47,647 bases of DNA from Shigella phage Sf12: sequence record MF158039; one strand, written 5' to 3'. Both the position numbers and the translations under genes were made by a program. Below the pieces are notes generated by a model. That model searched no databases, had not been told where the DNA came from, and saw only the letters and a list, made by a program, of their open reading frames with translations. Positions 14,377 through 44,820 of this stretch are shown here, in pieces. The stretch's first letter is position 1. Each line of letters begins with the position of its first letter.

Positions 14377-14410
14377 AAAAAAAAGGCCCCGAAAGGGGCC
14401 TTATCTTTCG
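14377..14410. terminator. Bidirectional terminator between convergent fiber and SSB genes
   Basis: aaaaaaaaggccccgaaaggggcctt. Confidence 0.65.
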
Positions 14411-14414
14411 AATA

Positions 14415-14840
14415 TCAGAACGGAATATCCTCTTCGTCATTGAATCGACTTTGCTGCTGAGGTTGCTGGCGTTGCTGCTGCTGTGGTTGTTGCTGGTATT
14501 GCTGCTGTGGTGCCGATTCACCACCTCGCTGGCTAAACATCAACCGAGGATTCTGCAACTCAAGCGTGATATAAGTCTTGCCGTTATGTTCTCGCTCATT
14601 AATAGCCAATGAATCACCGCTCACAGAGATAACCTTTCCTTCCTGGAAGGCTTCATCATACCAGCTAACCTGAGCCTCGCTTGCAAAAAATGTTACTGAG
14701 TAATTTGTGTATTTCCTTTCACCTTCTTTATTTTTATATGACTCTGAAAGTTCAACCTTATACATCTTCCACTGGCCTTTACTGTTTTCCCCAGTCTTTG
14801 TGAAAGGCGTTTTGCGGATATTTCCAGTTAAAGTATGCAT
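14415..14840 (-). CDS. ssb: Single-stranded DNA-binding protein
   Basis: Gln/Pro-rich linker and acidic tail ending DEEDIPF. Confidence 0.75.
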   Translation of the reverse strand: MHTLTGNIRKTPFTKTGENSKGQWKMYKVELSESYKNKEGERKYTNYSVTFFASEAQVSWYDEAFQEGKVISVSGDSLAINEREHNGKTYITLELQNPRLMFSQRGGESAPQQQYQQQPQQQQRQQPQQQSRFNDEEDIPF

Positions 14841-24198: not shown

Positions 24199-24774
24199 TT
24201 AAGCAATATCTTCAGCGTACGAGCCTGCACTAAATACAGCGCCACCAACCGTTCGATATCCATATGGTAGGCATACTGGATTTCCAGCCGCAATGGTGTT
24301 TACTGCTGATCCAAATGCGTATGATGCTCTGTTGCTTGTCTGTGATGCCTGGTCATTCAATCCAGTCGCTTGTGGTGCCAATAACTGAGCTACACCACCA
24401 GCAAGAAGGCCTACAGCCACTGGCAAAAGAACAGGAAAGAAGTAAGACGCCACCAGAAGTACACCGCCAAGGATTGTCTGGAATAAGCCGCCAGATTTTC
24501 GACCTTGAGGTATTGGCATAATCCTGATTTCACGAACAGTCTCAAGGTCATTAATCTTGTGCTCGTTGACATTTTTCCCGTCAACGAATACAGCAAACCT
24601 TGTGTTCTGGCCCACATGGCTACGCATGAATTCTTTAAATTCAGGAATGTTTACAGAAAGAGCTCGCATTGCTTCTGGGACTGTTTTCACGCAAAGCTTA
24701 TGTAGCTTTCCAAACTTCCTGCCCAAACCTAATCCCAACTTAACATCAATCACGTTCTGGGTCATAACCCGCAT
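24199..24774 (-). CDS. Tail assembly protein (lambda gpI-like)
   Basis: C-terminal hydrophobic segment with GGVAQLLAP; position between K and J. Confidence 0.7.
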   Translation of the reverse strand: MRVMTQNVIDVKLGLGLGRKFGKLHKLCVKTVPEAMRALSVNIPEFKEFMRSHVGQNTRFAVFVDGKNVNEHKINDLETVREIRIMPIPQGRKSGGLFQTILGGVLLVASYFFPVLLPVAVGLLAGGVAQLLAPQATGLNDQASQTSNRASYAFGSAVNTIAAGNPVCLPYGYRTVGGAVFSAGSYAEDIA

Positions 24775-25522
24775 CCTCCGGTAAATCTTTATGCCTTACG
24801 ATTCGCACTGTCCGCTCACGATAGTAGTCGCCGTACAAATCAACCTTACTCATCTTACCATATAAATGGTGTAGGATTTTATTATCACCAATATAGATGG
24901 CAGCGTGGTTTGTCTTCTCGCTTTGAATCTGCATCATAATCATCGATCCAATTGGGATGTTATTACCGCGAACTAACTCGAACCCCTCTAACTCCCAATT
25001 GTCATCGTAGATATTGTCAGGGTATTCGTTCGTCCACCACTGATAATCAACGCGGTAGTCATTTAGTTTAACGCCGTGTAGCTTGTGAAATTCCATAACC
25101 AAATTCCAACAGTCGAAGCTGCCAAGACCCCATGGGCGACCAGCAAGCGGCATTTTTTCTGGCTGAATAATCCGTAAGTCCCCTTCAGGTATAGAAACAA
25201 TAACATAAGGCAGCTCGCACTCATTGCAGCTGCAAATATCAGCTGCGCTTGGCCTAGTAGTAGCACCATCACCAGTATGTGAATGTACAACATAAACAAC
25301 GTTTTCATTATCTGAAATCTCCATGAATTCTGATGGGTCAAGAATGAATGATTGCTCTGGTGTTTTGGATACGTTGGTAATCCTGTGATACTTCTGAGCC
25401 ATTCCCTTTTGAGTCACAACCCCGCAAGATTCTTGCGGGTAAACCTCGTTGGCATGTCGAAATATTTCGATTTTTACTTTAGGTGTTAGCATTTTATCTC
25501 CCATGATTCTCATGAAAACCAT
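24746..25522 (-). CDS. Tail tip protein (lambda gpK-like: JAMM/MPN plus NlpC/P60 domains)
   Basis: HSHT JAMM-like motif, Cys/His peptidase signature; position. Confidence 0.7.
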   Translation of the reverse strand: MVFMRIMGDKMLTPKVKIEIFRHANEVYPQESCGVVTQKGMAQKYHRITNVSKTPEQSFILDPSEFMEISDNENVVYVVHSHTGDGATTRPSAADICSCNECELPYVIVSIPEGDLRIIQPEKMPLAGRPWGLGSFDCWNLVMEFHKLHGVKLNDYRVDYQWWTNEYPDNIYDDNWELEGFELVRGNNIPIGSMIMMQIQSEKTNHAAIYIGDNKILHHLYGKMSKVDLYGDYYRERTVRIVRHKDLPEDAGYDPERD

Positions 25523-25971
25523 TTAACCTTCTGAATTCATCTACAGCAATTGATGCTGATTCAAATGATTCATGACTTCCTAAGCTGTATTTCTTCCCAT
25601 TGAAGACAACGCTTGCCCTGTAGTTATTTCTGTCCTTTCTAAATGTGACCCCACTTTCACCGGTTGTATTTCTCTTATTCATTTTCATGTTTTTTTTGAT
25701 TTTCAGAGTGACTAACAATCCTTAAATTTTCTACCCTATTGTCGGACCTCGAACCGTTTATGTGATCTATCTCCATACCTTCTGGTATATCACCGTTGTG
25801 CATTTCCCAAACAATCCTATGCACGTAATGATAACTTCCTTTAGCACCAACCCTCAAGTATCCTCCGCTACGCAAAGAACCCGCTAAAGATCCTATTACT
25901 ATATTTCTGTTTGTCTTCTTATTCCAGTAAAGCTTGCCATCTCTGTATTCAAAAATTTCATTCCAGTTCAT
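25494..25971 (-). pseudogene. HNH homing endonuclease split into two ORFs by a frameshift at a T8 homopolymer (25690..25697)
   Basis: ORF 25675..25971 carries the HNH motif EIDHINGSRSDNRVENLRIV; ORF 25494..25718 carries the C-terminal domain. Confidence 0.6.
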
Positions 25972-25992
25972 TTTTAATCTCCAGTTTAATAG

Positions 25993-26040
25993 ATTATAGG
26001 ATAGCGCATTTCTGCGCTACCCAATTAACAAAAAGTGCTT
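25993..26040 (-). promoter_or_regulatory. Variant junction cassette upstream of the HNH gene: palindrome-like (26026..26040), hairpin, consensus -10 TATAAT
   Basis: ttaacaaaaagtgctt; tagcgcatttctgcgcta hairpin; TATAAT complement of 25993..25998. Confidence 0.4.
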
Positions 26041-26806
26041 AAGTCTGTTGGTTGGCTTTAGCTTGCAGGCTTGCGGCTGCACAACCGCCAAAGTCTAATT
26101 GATTGTTAGCTCCAAACCTTAACTTACAGGCGGTCACGGTTCCAGCACAGAAGTCTTGTGATGGGTCAGTCACAGGCGCGTTGTCCTTATCGAAATATCG
26201 AGTACCCATGTAGTTACATCCATTGCCTGAGCGGTAAAGCCCTCGCTGAGCCCAATAACAAACTGACTGAACAAGGCGCGCCGGAATGTAGATACCATCC
26301 ATATCCATCGGGCTGGTTAGTTCAAATGAGGCCGTATTGTAATCAACCTGCTTAGGTCGCTCAATGAAGTAAACCAGCTTGCGGTAATCGCCATCAGCAA
26401 TGGTGCCATCTTCGTTAATATTCTCCCGAAGGGTGATCCAGATAGTAACCTTGGCCTGAACAAGGCCATTGTAGGTGCGGATAAGCGCAGAAATGTTCTG
26501 GTCAACATTAGAGACAACTAGCGTTACTTTGTTTGCCTTGCCATCAGAAGTCATATTAATACCCTGAATACCGAATGGCCTTGCGCCGTACTCTTCACCA
26601 CGGAAAGTAATTGTCTTCGCTGAAATAGGTTGCCCCGTAGACTGAGCAATCATAATTTCTTCTGGTGTGTAGCTGATGTTCTCTCCATGGAAGCGATACA
26701 CCCTCCCGCCAAACTTAGTGCCATCAACCTCGATTAGCGTAACAATCTCGCCAGGGAACAGGCTTTGTAATTGATTCTCAAACTTAGTGCTTAATGGCGT
26801 AGCCAT
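26039..26806 (-). CDS. Minor tail protein (lambda gpL-like)
   Basis: C-terminal Cys cluster C..C..C..C; position between M and K. Confidence 0.7.
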   Translation of the reverse strand: MATPLSTKFENQLQSLFPGEIVTLIEVDGTKFGGRVYRFHGENISYTPEEIMIAQSTGQPISAKTITFRGEEYGARPFGIQGINMTSDGKANKVTLVVSNVDQNISALIRTYNGLVQAKVTIWITLRENINEDGTIADGDYRKLVYFIERPKQVDYNTASFELTSPMDMDGIYIPARLVQSVCYWAQRGLYRSGNGCNYMGTRYFDKDNAPVTDPSQDFCAGTVTACKLRFGANNQLDFGGCAAASLQAKANQQT

Positions 26807-34680: not shown

Positions 34681-36156
34681 CTATGCGAGAGGTTCGCTTA
34701 AGTTTTCCACCTTATAAGCGTAAACGCCAGCCAAGGCATCGGATGAGTTCCTTATGCCAACTATTGTAAGCTTGAAGCATTTAGAGTCAGCTGTAGCTCC
34801 TGGTGATGTGGTTACGTAGTGCTCAGATGTGACTCCAAAAACTCCTGGCTTGAACACGCTATTCCAAAGAGCAGTCCCAGGAGGCATGCTTGTTACTATC
34901 GCTGTGTAGTTTTTCAACTTATCAGCTGCAACTGTAGTGAGTGAGTCAATCTGGTATGCAGTGTGCCTTATTGAAGCGATGTTTGATGTACCGGTATTAC
35001 TAACACCAACCCACAGCCCCTTAGCGGCAACTGTCGCATTCTTCTCTCCGGTAAGAGCGAACCTTATTGTTGTCTCTCCAGGTATATCTATAAAGTCAGT
35101 ATCCGTCTGATTGATCAACCCTGACCTTACGCCTGAAGCTACGTTATAAGAGGCTGGACCAGCCACCCCCTGTAAGCCCTGAGGTCCCGTAGGGCCCTGC
35201 AATCCACGCTCACCCTGCGGGCCTGCCGGGCCTTGTGGTCCAACTGCACCAGCTACACCTTGTAAGCCTTGCGGGCCAGCTGGGCCTTGCTCACCTTGCA
35301 GGCCCCTCTCGCCTTGTGGGCCTTGAATACCTGCCGGACCTGTCGGGCCAGTTGGGCCTGCTGGACCAGCGGAACCCTGTGGGCCTGGAGCACCCTGTGC
35401 GGCCAGTAACTCCCAGGAATCGCTAACATCTGGATTTTCTCCGGTCACGGCGGCGGTAGCAAACCAGCTTGAGTTATTGAATGTAACAACGTCATCTTTA
35501 ACGTAAGCTGTCGCTGCGTCGTACATCCCGCGGAATGTTAAGCCTGCCGGACCAACTGGGCCCGCATCACCTTTATCACCTTTAGGGCCAGCAGGACCTG
35601 CTGCGCCAGTTGCACCGATAGGGCCTTGCGGACCAGCCTCGCCAGTTTCACCTTGAGGACCTTGCGGGCCTACGGGGCCAGCTGGACCAGTTTCGCCTTT
35701 AGCACCTGCCGCGCCTGCCGGGCCGGTAGCACCTGTTGGGCCTTGAGGACCCTGTGGACCAATAGCTCCTGCCGGGCCCGCTGGACCCTGTGGACCAACC
35801 GGACCTTGTGGGCCTGCTTCACCTGAGCCTCCTTCTTCATCACTTACAAAATCACCTTTCGCCAGCGCTGAAAGATAAGCACCATCTTCGAAGTGGGCAT
35901 TGCCAAACCTGCGCCAGCCCTGGGCTAGATATCTGTTAACCCTGTTAACTAATCCCTGAATTGTGGTATCGGATGTCACCATGAAGTCTTCAACGTTGTT
36001 TGCTGTTCCCTTCGCCATCTTCATGCCAAAGAGGGTGCCGCTCAGCATCTGCACGTCGCCATATGGCTGGAATCCTGATGAAATCATCATTTTTACGTTT
36101 CTGGCTAAGATTTCAGGTGAATTCCCTACTGCCATAGCAATTTCTGTGTAAGCCAT
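34681..36156 (-). CDS. Collagen-like triple-helix repeat protein (fiber-like structural protein)
   Basis: Two long Gly-X-Y tracts, e.g. [34 protein letters not shown]. Confidence 0.8.
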
Positions 36157-36237: not shown

Positions 36238-37530
36238 TTAAACGCGAGAAACTGAAAGGATTTCCACTTGGGCGCCAGTTTGTAAGTATAGCTGGCCAGC
36301 AACGTCATTCTCATCAATAGCATTTACTACGCCAGAGAAGATTCTGACACCAAAACCTTTAGTCAGCCTTGCCACTACGTTAAATCCACGAGGCTTAACT
36401 GGAACCATTAGTGATTTCTGACCTGTAGCCGCCAGAAAAACCTCGCGAGCCATAGCCATACCCCTGAACTCATGACCCAGAGCGCCAGGGTGAACCCTAT
36501 CAGTTCCGGTGTATATTTCAGAGTTTGCTGCCGTTACATAGTTGCTAATGTTGATTACTGGTATCCCGTTATCAGCACAGAAGCCATCAACCAACTCAAC
36601 AACCCTCTGAGTTGTGGCATTCAATCCAATTGGTGTTGCGCAGCTAATCTGGATGATTGGTACATCACTGTAAGTCTTCCTGGTCTCCTCCAGGCACTCC
36701 GACATAGACCTAAGCAGCCACTCAGCCTTGCCAGGGTCATTTATTGAAACTGAGTCATTATAACCAAGCGCCCACGAGATAACGTCAGGTTTTCTATTTA
36801 ACGCTGCGAGCCTTGTCTTTACCCTGTTAATCGGGAACCTGCCCTCCTCTTTTGAAGTCCAGGCCGATCCACCAATCCCTTCGCAGATACCATCGAATCC
36901 AAGCGCTCGACTAAAAGTATAGAAGTCGTTTACTGCAGGGGATGAGCCATAAGACTGAGTCCTAAATCCCGCACCAGTACCAGCTGTGTAGCTATCACCC
37001 ATCTGGTAAATGAATGGCCTTTTAATAGTAATATCCCTGCTAATCGTGTCTAACGGACCGAATGCGAAAGAGCCAAATGCAGTGTTAACGCCATAAATCT
37101 CAATATGCCTTAACTTTCCGCTAACGACTCCATCATTGGCCTTCACTTGAATCCAGCTAACACCCTCAGTGGTTGGTGTCGTGATAGCATCTAGGGTTAC
37201 CAATTTACCGTCAACGAATATTGAGTAAGATGAAAGAGAGCCAATGGTCTTAATTTCAAAAAGCCTTGAATCAGTCATAAACTCAAGTTTCATCTGAAGG
37301 CCATTCGAAGGCTTCTGACCAGTGTAAGACCCGCCTGAAACGTTATCAAATCCGTAGGTTGTCCACATGAGATTGGTCTCATTAAGTCTATTGATAACTT
37401 GAGGGGTGGTAATTGATGTTGCGGCCCTGATTTCCTTGATTGCGGAAAACTCAGTCGATAGCTGAACTGGCTGCATAGTAGCCAAGCCGTTTTCAATATT
37501 TCTTTTTACCAAATCAATAAAGCTTGCCAT
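36238..37530 (-). CDS. SGNH/GDSL-family esterase with about 170-aa N-terminal non-catalytic domain
   Basis: Block I GDSYTAG, block III GYND, block V DRVH. Confidence 0.7.
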   Translation of the reverse strand: MASFIDLVKRNIENGLATMQPVQLSTEFSAIKEIRAATSITTPQVINRLNETNLMWTTYGFDNVSGGSYTGQKPSNGLQMKLEFMTDSRLFEIKTIGSLSSYSIFVDGKLVTLDAITTPTTEGVSWIQVKANDGVVSGKLRHIEIYGVNTAFGSFAFGPLDTISRDITIKRPFIYQMGDSYTAGTGAGFRTQSYGSSPAVNDFYTFSRALGFDGICEGIGGSAWTSKEEGRFPINRVKTRLAALNRKPDVISWALGYNDSVSINDPGKAEWLLRSMSECLEETRKTYSDVPIIQISCATPIGLNATTQRVVELVDGFCADNGIPVINISNYVTAANSEIYTGTDRVHPGALGHEFRGMAMAREVFLAATGQKSLMVPVKPRGFNVVARLTKGFGVRIFSGVVNAIDENDVAGQLYLQTGAQVEILSVSRV

Positions 37531-44303: not shown

Positions 44304-44350
44304 ATCATATCAACTACCCATTCTGGCGTATTAGCAATTAGTGCTATTTG
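44304..44350 (-). promoter_or_regulatory. Junction cassette copy: palindrome (44332..44346), -10-like TATGAT (complement of 44304..44309); no long ORF downstream
   Basis: attagcaattagtgctatttg; leader catcaagacgaaacgaggagaagaaATG precedes only a 22-codon ORF. Confidence 0.5.
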
Positions 44351-44820
44351 CCGTGATTATCATGAAATACGTATTTTAAGTTCGCTTCCTGCCTTGCCTT
44401 AATTGCCTCATTCATGTCGGAATAAGTTCCCAGGTGAATATCCTTTCCGGAGACTTTAATCTTTGCGGCCCACTTACCTGAAGCTTTGTGCCAGCCTACT
44501 CCAATGAAACCACTTAAGCTAGATGGTCTTATTGATTGGTTCCTCTGATTTCCTGCGTTTGTAACAAGCCTTAGGTTTTCAATCCTGTTATCTTTCCTAT
44601 TATGGTTTATGTGATCAATCATCATACCTTCGGGCTTTTCCCTACCATGCATGAACCAAACTATATTGTGCACAAGTGCGGTTCCGTCTATGAAATGTCA
44701 CTGCAGATAACCTTTAGAATCAGGACTTCCAGTAACTCGTCCATTTGACAATCTGGTTATCGTTCCATCTTTATTATAGCTAAAGTGGCATTTTATATAC
44801 TCTTTATTTCTCACTACCAT
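44344..44820 (-). pseudogene. HNH homing endonuclease interrupted by an in-frame TGA (complement of 44698..44700)
   Basis: Hand translation MVVRNKEY...SKGYLQ*HFIDGTALVHNIVWFMHG...IDHINHNRKDNRIENLRLV aligns across the stop with intact paralogs. Confidence 0.6.

What the first reader, a model, noticed from the sequence alone, without database searches (positions are those of the whole stretch)
25494..25971. Second disrupted HNH endonuclease: frameshift at a T8 homopolymer inside the tail operon
The HNH motif ORF and the C-terminal-domain ORF overlap in different frames across tttttttt (25690..25697). Homopolymer tracts are hotspots both for sequencing error and for slippage, so this may be a decaying homing endonuclease or a slippage-regulated one. 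Together with the TGA-interrupted copy, two of the five HNH genes are broken.
Basis: seen in the sequence. Interest (0 to 1): 0.5.

Follow-up and report, generated by a model that had tools for sequence, protein, structure and literature searches.

The report
Frameshift-broken HNH-AP2 homing endonuclease gene
A selfish "homing endonuclease" gene sitting between two tail genes of Shigella phage Sf12 is split in two by one extra A in a run of A's, which is an ordinary way for such genes to break (or for a sequence record to be wrong) and shows no sign of being a deliberate regulatory trick.

Summary
The window is the 47,647-bp genome of Shigella phage Sf12, a T1-like Drexlerviridae phage. T8 at 25690-25697 is A8 on the coding minus strand. 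It lies exactly where a 98-aa HNH ORF (25675-25971) and a 64-aa AP2-like ORF (25494-25688) change frame.

Removing one A gives a 158-aa protein. It aligns end to end with about 100 intact 150-180-aa HNH-AP2 homing endonucleases and restores Asn94, one of three invariant family residues. Intact homologs occupy the same slot between tail genes L and K in AHP42, Rtp and a metagenomic phage, with the A-run interrupted there. Rogue1, Jk06 and AHP24 have an empty site.

The C-terminal half shows no further decay, so this is a single recent lesion: a real A7-to-A8 slip mutation or a homopolymer error in the record. No independent copy exists to decide which.

Programmed recoding is not supported. The run is not conserved and no RNA structure follows it. 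The required change, loss of one A or a +1 shift on A8, is one that E. coli RNA polymerase and ribosomes perform poorly. ICP1 gp115/gp116 is a published precedent for the same HNH/AP2 split. Two of five copies are indeed broken. Low interest.

The parts
25494..25971 (-). Whole HNH-AP2 homing endonuclease gene. As written it is in two frames. With A7 in place of A8 it is one 158-aa ORF.
   Evidence: The A7 reconstruction aligns end to end with 157-162-aa homologs. The AF2 model has pLDDT 89, and its best fold matches are I-HmuI and then AP2 domains.
25675..25971 (-). ORF1, 98 aa (GenBank ATE85769.1). It holds the N-terminal beta region and the complete HNH (beta-beta-alpha-metal) motif with D69, H70, N82 and N91. 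It ends ...NQKKHENE* in the wrong frame.
   Evidence: Pfam HNH_3 at 81.6 bits. The family profile matches I-HmuI 1U3E at E 6e-9. Exact-sequence look-up.
25690..25697 (-). A8 run (T8 on the + strand), the frameshift site. The ancestral reading is inferred to be CAA AAA AAC (Q-K-N).
   Evidence: DNA alignments with AHP42 and Logan contig L003 place a 1-nt gap exactly here. Those homologs read CAAAGAAAC and CAGAAGAAT. A7 gives 158 aa, A10 gives 159 aa, and A6, A8 and A9 give 94-98 aa.
25494..25688 (-). ORF2, 64 aa from its first ATG (GenBank ATE85768.1, 'putative transcription factor'). It holds the linker and the AP2-type DNA-binding domain and ends ...FHENHGR*.
   Evidence: Family HMM positions 91-158, E 1.5e-21. 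Pfam AP2 at 20.3 bits, below the 33.3 cut-off. Profile match to the WRI1 AP2 domain at E 1e-4. Foldseek matches 1GCC and 7ET4 at probability 1.0. No Shine-Dalgarno sequence lies ahead of the ATG (read from the sequence).
25972..26038 (-). 5' block that travels with the endonuclease gene. It contains a 10-bp hairpin (25999-26022), TATAAT (25993-25998) and the SD GGAG (25979-25982).
   Evidence: The block is conserved in AHP42 and L003 and absent from the empty site in Rogue1. Fold z-score is -3.8.
26039..26806 (-). Tail protein L homolog, the upstream flank of the insertion.
   Evidence: Pfam Phage_tail_L at 159.8 bits.
24746..25492 (-). Tail protein K homolog (JAB + NlpC/P60), the downstream flank. 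Its SD GGGAGA lies in the last codons of the endonuclease gene.
   Evidence: Pfam Prok-JAB and NLPC_P60. Alignment with AHP42 and Rogue1.

Best explanation
This is one free-standing HNH-AP2 homing endonuclease gene. It is a selfish, AT-rich, roughly 545-bp insert between tail genes L and K of Shigella phage Sf12. One extra A in an A-run (inferred A7, CAA AAA AAC, becoming A8) has put it out of frame.

The extra A most likely arose by replication slippage in the phage. As written, ribosomes end at TAA 25675-25677 and make a 98-aa protein. That protein keeps the catalytic HNH motif but loses invariant Asn94, the linker and the AP2 DNA-binding domain that gives such enzymes their target specificity. 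Homing activity is therefore expected to be lost or nearly lost.

The lesion is recent, because nothing else in the gene has decayed. This is the degeneration stage of the usual homing-endonuclease life cycle, in which a gene invades, becomes fixed, degenerates and is lost. It is not a regulatory device.

Shown here: one gene, the exact position of the break, the domain architecture, presence/absence of the gene at this site among relatives, and the lack of further decay. Inferred: that the extra A is in the phage DNA and not only in the record, and that function is lost.
For: - **Two consecutive halves of one family.** The two ORFs match consecutive parts of one family HMM. The A7 reconstruction aligns without gaps across the junction to 14 and to 89 homologs and restores N94, which with H70 and L83 is one of only three invariant residues.
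- **The break is in the run.** DNA alignments place a single-base gap inside the A-run.
- **Mobile-element signatures.** Intact homologs sit in the same L/K slot in AHP42, Rtp and a 49-kb Logan phage contig. The site is empty in Rogue1, Jk06 and AHP24. The insert is 36.8% GC against 44.3% for the genome.
- **No further decay.** The C-terminal half scores 71.8 bits, the 34th percentile of 105 intact homologs held out of the HMM, and has no stop codons.
- **Break at a domain boundary.** In the AF2 model (pLDDT 89) the break falls at the end of the HNH helix (88-93), just before the linker to the AP2 fold.
- **Decay is ongoing in this genome.** A second copy carries a nonsense codon.
Against: No independent sequence of this allele exists. 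The best relative among 5.8 billion proteins is 53% identical, and the only IMG/VR hit is the same genome. A homopolymer error in the record, or a mutation confined to the sequenced stock, therefore cannot be excluded. The paper describing the sequencing was not available. The complete lack of secondary decay is equally what an artefact, or a tolerated or rescued frameshift, would show.
Confidence: 0.6

Rival explanations
1. Sequencing or assembly artefact. The phage really has A7 and an intact 158-aa endonuclease gene, and the deposited record carries one A too many.
For: The break is a single base in the longest coding homopolymer of the genome. Everything else in the gene is intact, including the invariant residues and the shared stop/SD junction with gene K. 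There is only one record of this allele.
Against: None of the ten 7-nt and 28 6-nt A/T runs in the genome stands out as a frame break. Most of the runs that lie in ORFs are deep inside them, though the few near ORF 3' ends were not checked individually. Systematic homopolymer error is therefore not evident. From memory, unverified here, this genome was sequenced on Illumina, where 8-nt runs are normally called correctly at consensus level. A second endonuclease copy is broken by a substitution (TGA), which cannot be a homopolymer artefact and shows that real decay occurs in this genome.
Confidence: 0.22
2. Slippage-regulated or leaky expression. The A8 tract is kept so that rare RNA-polymerase slippage (loss of one A or gain of two) or a +1 ribosomal shift yields a small dose of full-length enzyme. 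Alternatively the tract acts as a mutational on/off switch in the phage population.
For: - A/T runs of 8-9 nt are used for transcriptional slippage in some bacterial genes and IS elements, including 8-A runs in Deinococcus and Nostoc IS elements (PMC1088944).
- Non-programmed frameshift suppression of 1-10% has been measured in E. coli (PMC10861913).
- The ORF2 frame is open from 25718, giving a window of about 14 codons in which a +1 shift would yield near-native protein.
- Homing endonucleases need little protein (general knowledge).
Against: - The run is not conserved. Both intact homologs aligned at the DNA level at the same site have an interrupted run and a single ORF, and the ~100 full-length (150-182 aa) family members recovered are single ORFs.
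- No downstream structure is present (z = +1.1), and no SD-like or slow-codon +1 stimulator is visible in the sequence.
- A -1 shift gives an immediate TGA.
- E. coli RNA polymerase showed no detectable deletion slippage on sense-strand poly(A) runs up to A8 (PMC6260861).
- No ORF of 400 aa or more is a phage RNA polymerase, so transcription is presumably by the host enzyme.
- Ribosome sliding is robust at A11 but weak at A9-10, and two AAA codons are normally read without sliding (PMC4363877).
Confidence: 0.08
3. Functional two-piece arrangement. The 98-aa nuclease and the 64-aa AP2 protein are both made, the second by termination-reinitiation at the ATGs 5-11 nt upstream of the ORF1 stop. 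They act together, or the AP2 piece acts alone as a DNA-binding regulator or site protector.
For: The break falls at a domain boundary. ATG 25686-25688 and a second ATG lie just upstream of the ORF1 stop, a geometry compatible with coupling. DNA-binding domains of homing endonucleases have been co-opted as regulators elsewhere, for example CapR and the plant AP2 factors (PMC10448857).
Against: There is no Shine-Dalgarno sequence before either ATG. The split is not conserved in any relative. Invariant N94 and the linker are lost from the nuclease half. The allele is unique, so nothing shows that selection maintains the split.
Confidence: 0.07

Closest known systems
Intact HNH endonucleases at the same L/K site: AHP42_22 (AHI60568.1), Rtp rtp40 (YP_398984.1) and P0002 on Logan contig SRR10499612_10621
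   Same: They occupy the same insertion slot between tail genes L and K. They share the 5' hairpin/TATAAT/SD block (aligned for AHP42 and the Logan contig; not examined in Rtp), the first residues (MNWNEIFEYRDGKLYW) and the C-terminal ...HxNHGR*. The stop abutting the K start is shared with AHP42. The HNH_3 + AP2-like architecture is the same.
   Different: They are only 44-53% identical in protein sequence, so they are different alleles. All are single ORFs of 158-171 aa, with the A-run interrupted (CAAAGAAAC in AHP42, CAGAAGAAT in the Logan contig; Rtp DNA not examined). The Sf12 copy alone is frameshifted.
ICP1 gp115/gp116 (IPA-HNH homing endonuclease split by a frameshift; Barth et al. 2023, PMC10448857)
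   Same: An HNH-domain ORF is followed immediately by an AP2-domain ORF. The authors read this as one homing endonuclease gene inactivated by a frameshift.
   Different: It is in a Vibrio phage. Its HNH domain is too divergent for Pfam HNH_3, whereas the Sf12 copy is a canonical HNH_3. No role of a homopolymer is described in the passages I read.
I-HmuI (SPO1 intron-encoded HNH nicking homing endonuclease, PDB 1U3E)
   Same: The N-terminal beta region and the HNH motif align over family profile positions 1-104 at E 6e-9. It is the best Foldseek hit. The Asp-His pair and the Asn residues of the motif are conserved.
   Different: I-HmuI is intron-encoded and has a C-terminal helix-turn-helix domain instead of AP2. 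Sequence identity is 21%.
Genes expressed through transcriptional slippage on A/T runs (T. thermophilus dnaX A9, Shigella mxiE T9, IS elements; Baranov et al. 2005, PMC1088944)
   Same: Two overlapping frames are joined at an A/T homopolymer.
   Different: In those cases the run is conserved among homologs and is usually 9 nt or longer, and fusion is by insertion or by either direction. Here the run is 8 nt, unique to one genome, and needs a deletion in a sense-strand poly(A) run.

Membership tests
HNH_3 (PF13392) / His-Me finger nucleases | Profile match above the curated cut-off | tested here: met
   ORF1 scores 81.6 bits against a cut-off of 24.8, covering profile positions 1-45 of 46.
HNH_3 (PF13392) / His-Me finger nucleases | Catalytic motif residues (the Asp-His pair and the motif Asn residues) and the beta-beta-alpha fold | tested here: met
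   D69, H70, N82 and N91 are present in ORF1 and align to I-HmuI D74, H75, N87 and N96. The model has strands 66-70 and 83-87 and helix 88-93. Invariant N94 is present only in the repaired frame. The roles of the I-HmuI residues are from memory of Shen et al. 2004.
AP2 DNA-binding domain (PF00847) | Profile match above the curated cut-off | tested here: inconclusive
   20.3 bits against a cut-off of 33.3. Most intact family members also lack a precomputed PF00847 hit.
AP2 DNA-binding domain (PF00847) | Three-stranded sheet packed on one helix, resembling solved AP2 domains | tested here: met
   The model has strands 108-111, 116-123 and 126-133 and helix 136-149. Foldseek matches 1GCC (TM 0.65 normalised to the target) and 7ET4 (rmsd 1.8 A) at probability 1.0. 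The family profile matches the WRI1 AP2 domain at E 9.5e-5.
Free-standing homing endonuclease gene | Presence/absence polymorphism at one precise site among related genomes | tested here: met
   The site is occupied in Sf12, AHP42, Rtp and L003. It is empty, with L and K about 9 nt apart, in Rogue1, Jk06 and AHP24.
Free-standing homing endonuclease gene | Cleaves or nicks the gene-less allele near the insertion site and is copied in by repair | not testable with these tools
   This needs co-infection or in vitro cleavage assays.
Programmed frameshift / transcriptional slippage gene | Slippery run and two-frame organisation conserved among homologs | tested here: not met
   The two homologs at the same site aligned at the DNA level have interrupted runs and single ORFs. 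The ~100 full-length (150-182 aa) family members are single ORFs.
Programmed frameshift / transcriptional slippage gene | Stimulatory element (downstream structure, SD-like sequence or slow codon) or a run long enough for efficient slippage | tested here: not met
   The downstream 141 nt fold no better than shuffles (z = +1.1). A8 is below the roughly 9 nt at which selection against runs appears in many bacteria. A8 gave no deletion slippage with E. coli RNA polymerase.
Pseudogene (decaying homing endonuclease gene) | Disrupted reading frame relative to intact homologs | tested here: met
Pseudogene (decaying homing endonuclease gene) | Signs of relaxed constraint beyond the first lesion | tested here: not met
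   The C-terminal half is at the 34th percentile of intact homologs and has no stops. If this is a pseudogene, it is a very young one.

The most novel reading that the evidence does not exclude
The A8 tract is a working throttle or switch. Rare loss of one A in the transcript, or reversible A7/A8 slippage in the DNA of the phage population, would supply just enough full-length HNH-AP2 enzyme for homing while sparing the tail operon a toxic nuclease. Alternatively the freed 64-aa AP2 piece has been co-opted as a DNA-binding regulator or as a protector of the target site.
Probability: 0.06. Interest if true: 0.5.

Novelty: new member of a known kind. Interest (0 to 1): 0.15.

Why it matters
The main value is for annotation. 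The two GenBank/RefSeq entries are halves of one homing endonuclease gene: ATE85769.1 'HNH homing endonuclease', 98 aa, and ATE85768.1 'putative transcription factor', 64 aa. The 'transcription factor' label is a by-product of the split.

The case adds a clean example, with the exact lesion identified, to the known pattern that phage homing endonuclease genes are gained, swapped and broken at fixed sites next to essential genes. Here that site is the L/K junction of T1-like tail operons, and two of five copies are caught in early decay. It does not open a new question unless the A8 tract proves to be functional.

Tried and rejected
- **Independent copies of the allele, to read the run length.** The search of 5.8 billion proteins found nothing above 53% identity apart from Sf12's own ORF. 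Exact look-ups found clusters of one member each, and the fused 158-aa sequence is not on record. The IMG/VR DNA scan returned only the same 47,647-bp genome.
- **The paper describing how Sf12 was sequenced.** Doore et al. 2018 (J Virol) and the 2019 follow-up are not held.
- **Recurrent truncation at the same site in shorter family hits.** P0084, P0087, P0088, P0107 and P0113 are contig-end fragments or N-terminal truncations and do not break at the NQKN site.
- **A frameshift-stimulating RNA structure.** None was found.
- **A phage-encoded, slippage-prone RNA polymerase.** None was found among ORFs of 400 aa or more.
- **Systematic homopolymer errors in the assembly.** None of the other 6- and 7-nt runs stands out as a frame break, and most that lie in ORFs are deep inside them. 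This check is indirect and is not proof.
- **dN/dS on the C-terminal half.** This is not feasible because there are no close relatives. I used held-out HMM scores instead. The homolog set was chosen by similarity to Sf12, which inflates the rank of the N-terminal half.

Full report
**What the window is.** The 98-aa ORF at the finding is identical to ATE85769.1/YP_009792014.1, 'HNH homing endonuclease [Shigella phage Sf12]', on a 47,647-bp contig. That is the length of the window. An IMG/VR record of the same length carries the same sequence. At the nucleotide level the closest records are Drexlerviridae of the Rogunavirinae type (Opt-79, phiEB49, AHP42, Rogue1) at about 85-88% identity. No near-identical record is in the phage collection.

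**Checking the observation.** The + strand has T8 at 25690-25697, and the genes here are on the minus strand, so the coding strand reads ...GAA AAT CAA AAA AAA CAT GAA AAT GAA TAA.
- ORF1 (25675-25971) is 98 aa and is a clear HNH_3 match at 81.6 bits against a cut-off of 24.8.
- ORF2 is open from 25718 to 25494. From its first ATG (25686-25688) it encodes the 64-aa protein that GenBank lists as ATE85768.1, 'putative transcription factor'.
- An HMM built from family members matches ORF1 at profile positions 1-96 (E 1e-47) and ORF2 at positions 91-158 (E 1.5e-21). They are consecutive pieces of one gene.
- The neighbours are tail gene L (Phage_tail_L, 26039-26806) upstream and K (JAB + NlpC/P60, 24746-25492), I and J downstream, with the tape-measure gene further up.

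**Where exactly the break is.**
- Shortening the run to A7 gives a 158-aa ORF and A10 gives 159 aa. A6, A8 and A9 give 94-98 aa.
- The shift needed is therefore loss of one base or gain of two, or a +1 ribosomal shift. A -1 shift runs straight into TGA.
- The A7 protein aligns without a gap through the junction to 14 and then to 89 homologs of 150-180 aa (…SHSENQKNMKMNKRNTTGESGVTF… against, for example, …ALENQKNMKKPSSNTSGVIGVSW…).
- Asn94, the residue restored by the repair, is one of only three invariant positions in the 90-sequence alignment; the others are H70 and L83.
- DNA alignments with two intact homologs put a one-base gap inside the run. Those homologs read AATCAAAGAAAC and AATCAGAAGAAT.
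- The simplest history is CAA AAA AAC (Q-K-N, A7) gaining one A.

**What the gene is.**
- The family profile matches the SPO1 homing endonuclease I-HmuI (1U3E) over positions 1-104 at E 6e-9. It matches the AP2 domain of WRI1 over positions 100-150 at E 1e-4.
- An AlphaFold model of the repaired protein (pLDDT 89) shows the beta-beta-alpha-metal finger (strands 66-70 and 83-87, helix 88-93). A lower-confidence linker follows at 94-107.
- After the linker comes a three-stranded sheet plus helix (108-149). Foldseek ranks I-HmuI first, followed by the AP2 domains of AtERF1 and TEM1.
- This HNH + AP2 architecture is a recognised class of homing endonucleases in phages, cyanobacteria and protists (PMC10448857).
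- The break lies at the end of the HNH helix, on the domain boundary.

**Evidence that it is a mobile, free-standing homing endonuclease gene.**
- Intact homologs sit in exactly the same slot between L and K in AHP42 (162 aa), Rtp (rtp40) and a 49-kb phage contig from a Logan assembly (158 aa, 53% identical).
- Rogue1, Jk06 and AHP24 have L and K about 9 nt apart.
- The insert of about 545 bp is 36.8% GC against 44.3% for the genome and 43-47% for the flanks. All five copies in the genome are 37-40% GC.
- The insert brings a conserved 5' block with a 10-bp hairpin, TATAAT and an SD. Its last codons (CAT GGG AGA TAA) supply the SD for K.

**How old is the lesion?** I built separate HMMs for the N- and C-terminal halves from 105 intact homologs with six-fold hold-out. 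The Sf12 C-terminal half scores 71.8 bits, the 34th percentile of intact proteins. It has no stop codons and keeps the nearly invariant N101, G107, V108, A139, H156 and G157. The frameshift is the only defect. That fits a very recent mutation, a sequence error or a tolerated frameshift, and these three cannot be separated by this test.

**Real mutation or artefact?** No second sequence of this allele exists in any collection searched, and the paper describing the sequencing was not available.
- In favour of a real lesion: none of the other 6- and 7-nt A/T runs stands out as a frame break, and another endonuclease copy is broken by a base substitution (in-frame TGA at 44698-44700), so genuine decay is under way in this genome.
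- In favour of an artefact: this is the only 8-nt homopolymer in coding sequence. The other 8-mer, 14377-14384, is a terminator U-tract.
- I put a real mutation at about 0.6 and an artefact at about 0.2.

**Is it programmed or regulated slippage?** The evidence is against it.
- The run and the two-frame layout are absent from the homologs aligned at the same site, and all ~100 full-length family members recovered are single ORFs.
- The 141 nt around and after the run fold no better than shuffled sequence (z = +1.1). No SD-like or slow-codon element precedes or follows the run.
- No ORF of 400 aa or more is an RNA polymerase, so the host enzyme presumably transcribes the gene.
- In a systematic reporter study, E. 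coli RNA polymerase gave about 10% rescue by deletion on T8 but none on the poly(A) runs tested. It showed no activity at all below T7 or A8 (PMC6260861).
- Selection against coding A/T runs typically sets in at 9 nt, although some IS elements appear to use A8 (PMC1088944).
- Ribosome sliding is robust on A11 and slight on A9-10, and two AAA codons are normally read faithfully (PMC4363877).
- A trace of full-length protein through non-programmed events cannot be excluded; frameshift suppression of 1-10% has been measured for other frameshift mutants (PMC10861913). Nothing suggests the tract is maintained for that purpose.

**Could the two pieces work separately?** Two ATGs lie 5 and 11 nt upstream of the ORF1 stop, so termination-reinitiation is geometrically possible, but neither has an SD. 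The nuclease half lacks invariant N94 and any specificity domain. No relative shares the split. I give this low weight.

**Comparison with what is known.** The closest case is in Vibrio phage ICP1. There gp115 (HNH) and gp116 (AP2) are interpreted as one homing endonuclease gene inactivated by a frameshift. [quoted passage not shown] The Sf12 gene is a new, divergent allele (at most 53% identity) of a known family, at a known kind of site, broken in a known way.

**Verdict.** One correction applies: T7 restores the frame, T9 does not, and T10 would. Interest is low at 0.15. The practical result is an annotation fix, because the 'putative transcription factor' is the AP2 half of the endonuclease.

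Noticed in passing
window 44347-44820 (-): The fifth HNH-AP2 copy has an in-frame TGA at 44698-44700 (…GYLQ*HFIDG…). Both sides of the stop still score as family sequence (N half 84.7 bits, C half 83.3 bits). Gene finders would call only a 109-aa N-terminally truncated ORF starting at a GTG.
   Followed up: partly
window 25972-26038 (-): A block conserved with AHP42 and Logan contig L003 lies directly after the tail-L stop. It has a 10-bp hairpin (GGGUAGCGCA-GAAA-UGCGCUAUCC, 25999-26022), then TATAAT (25993-25998), then a weak A/U hairpin overlapping the SD GGAG (25979-25982). Fold z-score is -3.8. It may be a promoter, an RNA-stability element or a translational control for the endonuclease gene. 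AHP42's annotators called a non-canonical promoter here.
   Followed up: partly
window 25440-26045 against L001 (AHP42): The identity pattern is mosaic. It is 39/40 per 40-column alignment window over 25927-26006 (the upstream block and the first 15 codons of the endonuclease) and 37/40 from 25502 into gene K. It is only about 35-70% through the endonuclease body. This looks like different alleles swapped at one site by recombination in the shared ends.
   Followed up: partly
window 25494-25688 (-): GenBank/RefSeq annotate the AP2 half as a separate 'putative transcription factor' (ATE85768.1/YP_009792013.1). This is a mis-annotation produced by the frameshift.
   Followed up: yes
window 25490-25522 (-): Mechanical ORF listing gives tail gene K an upstream ATG at 25522 (258 aa), overlapping the end of the endonuclease gene. 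Homologs start at 25492 (MLTPKV…, 248 aa), with the SD GGGAGA formed by the last codons of the endonuclease gene.
   Followed up: yes
window 14377-14402: The only other 8-nt homopolymer in the genome (A8 on +, T8 on -) is the U-tract of an intrinsic terminator. The hairpin is AAGGCCCC-TTTC-GGGGCCTT. It lies after the minus-strand gene ending at 14415, between convergent genes.
   Followed up: yes
window 34681-36156 (-) and 36238-37530 (-): A 491-aa protein with collagen triple-helix repeats lies next to a 430-aa GDSL-lipase/acylhydrolase-domain protein in the structural region. These may be a fibre or decoration protein and an esterase. They were seen only in a Pfam scan of the large ORFs.
   Followed up: no
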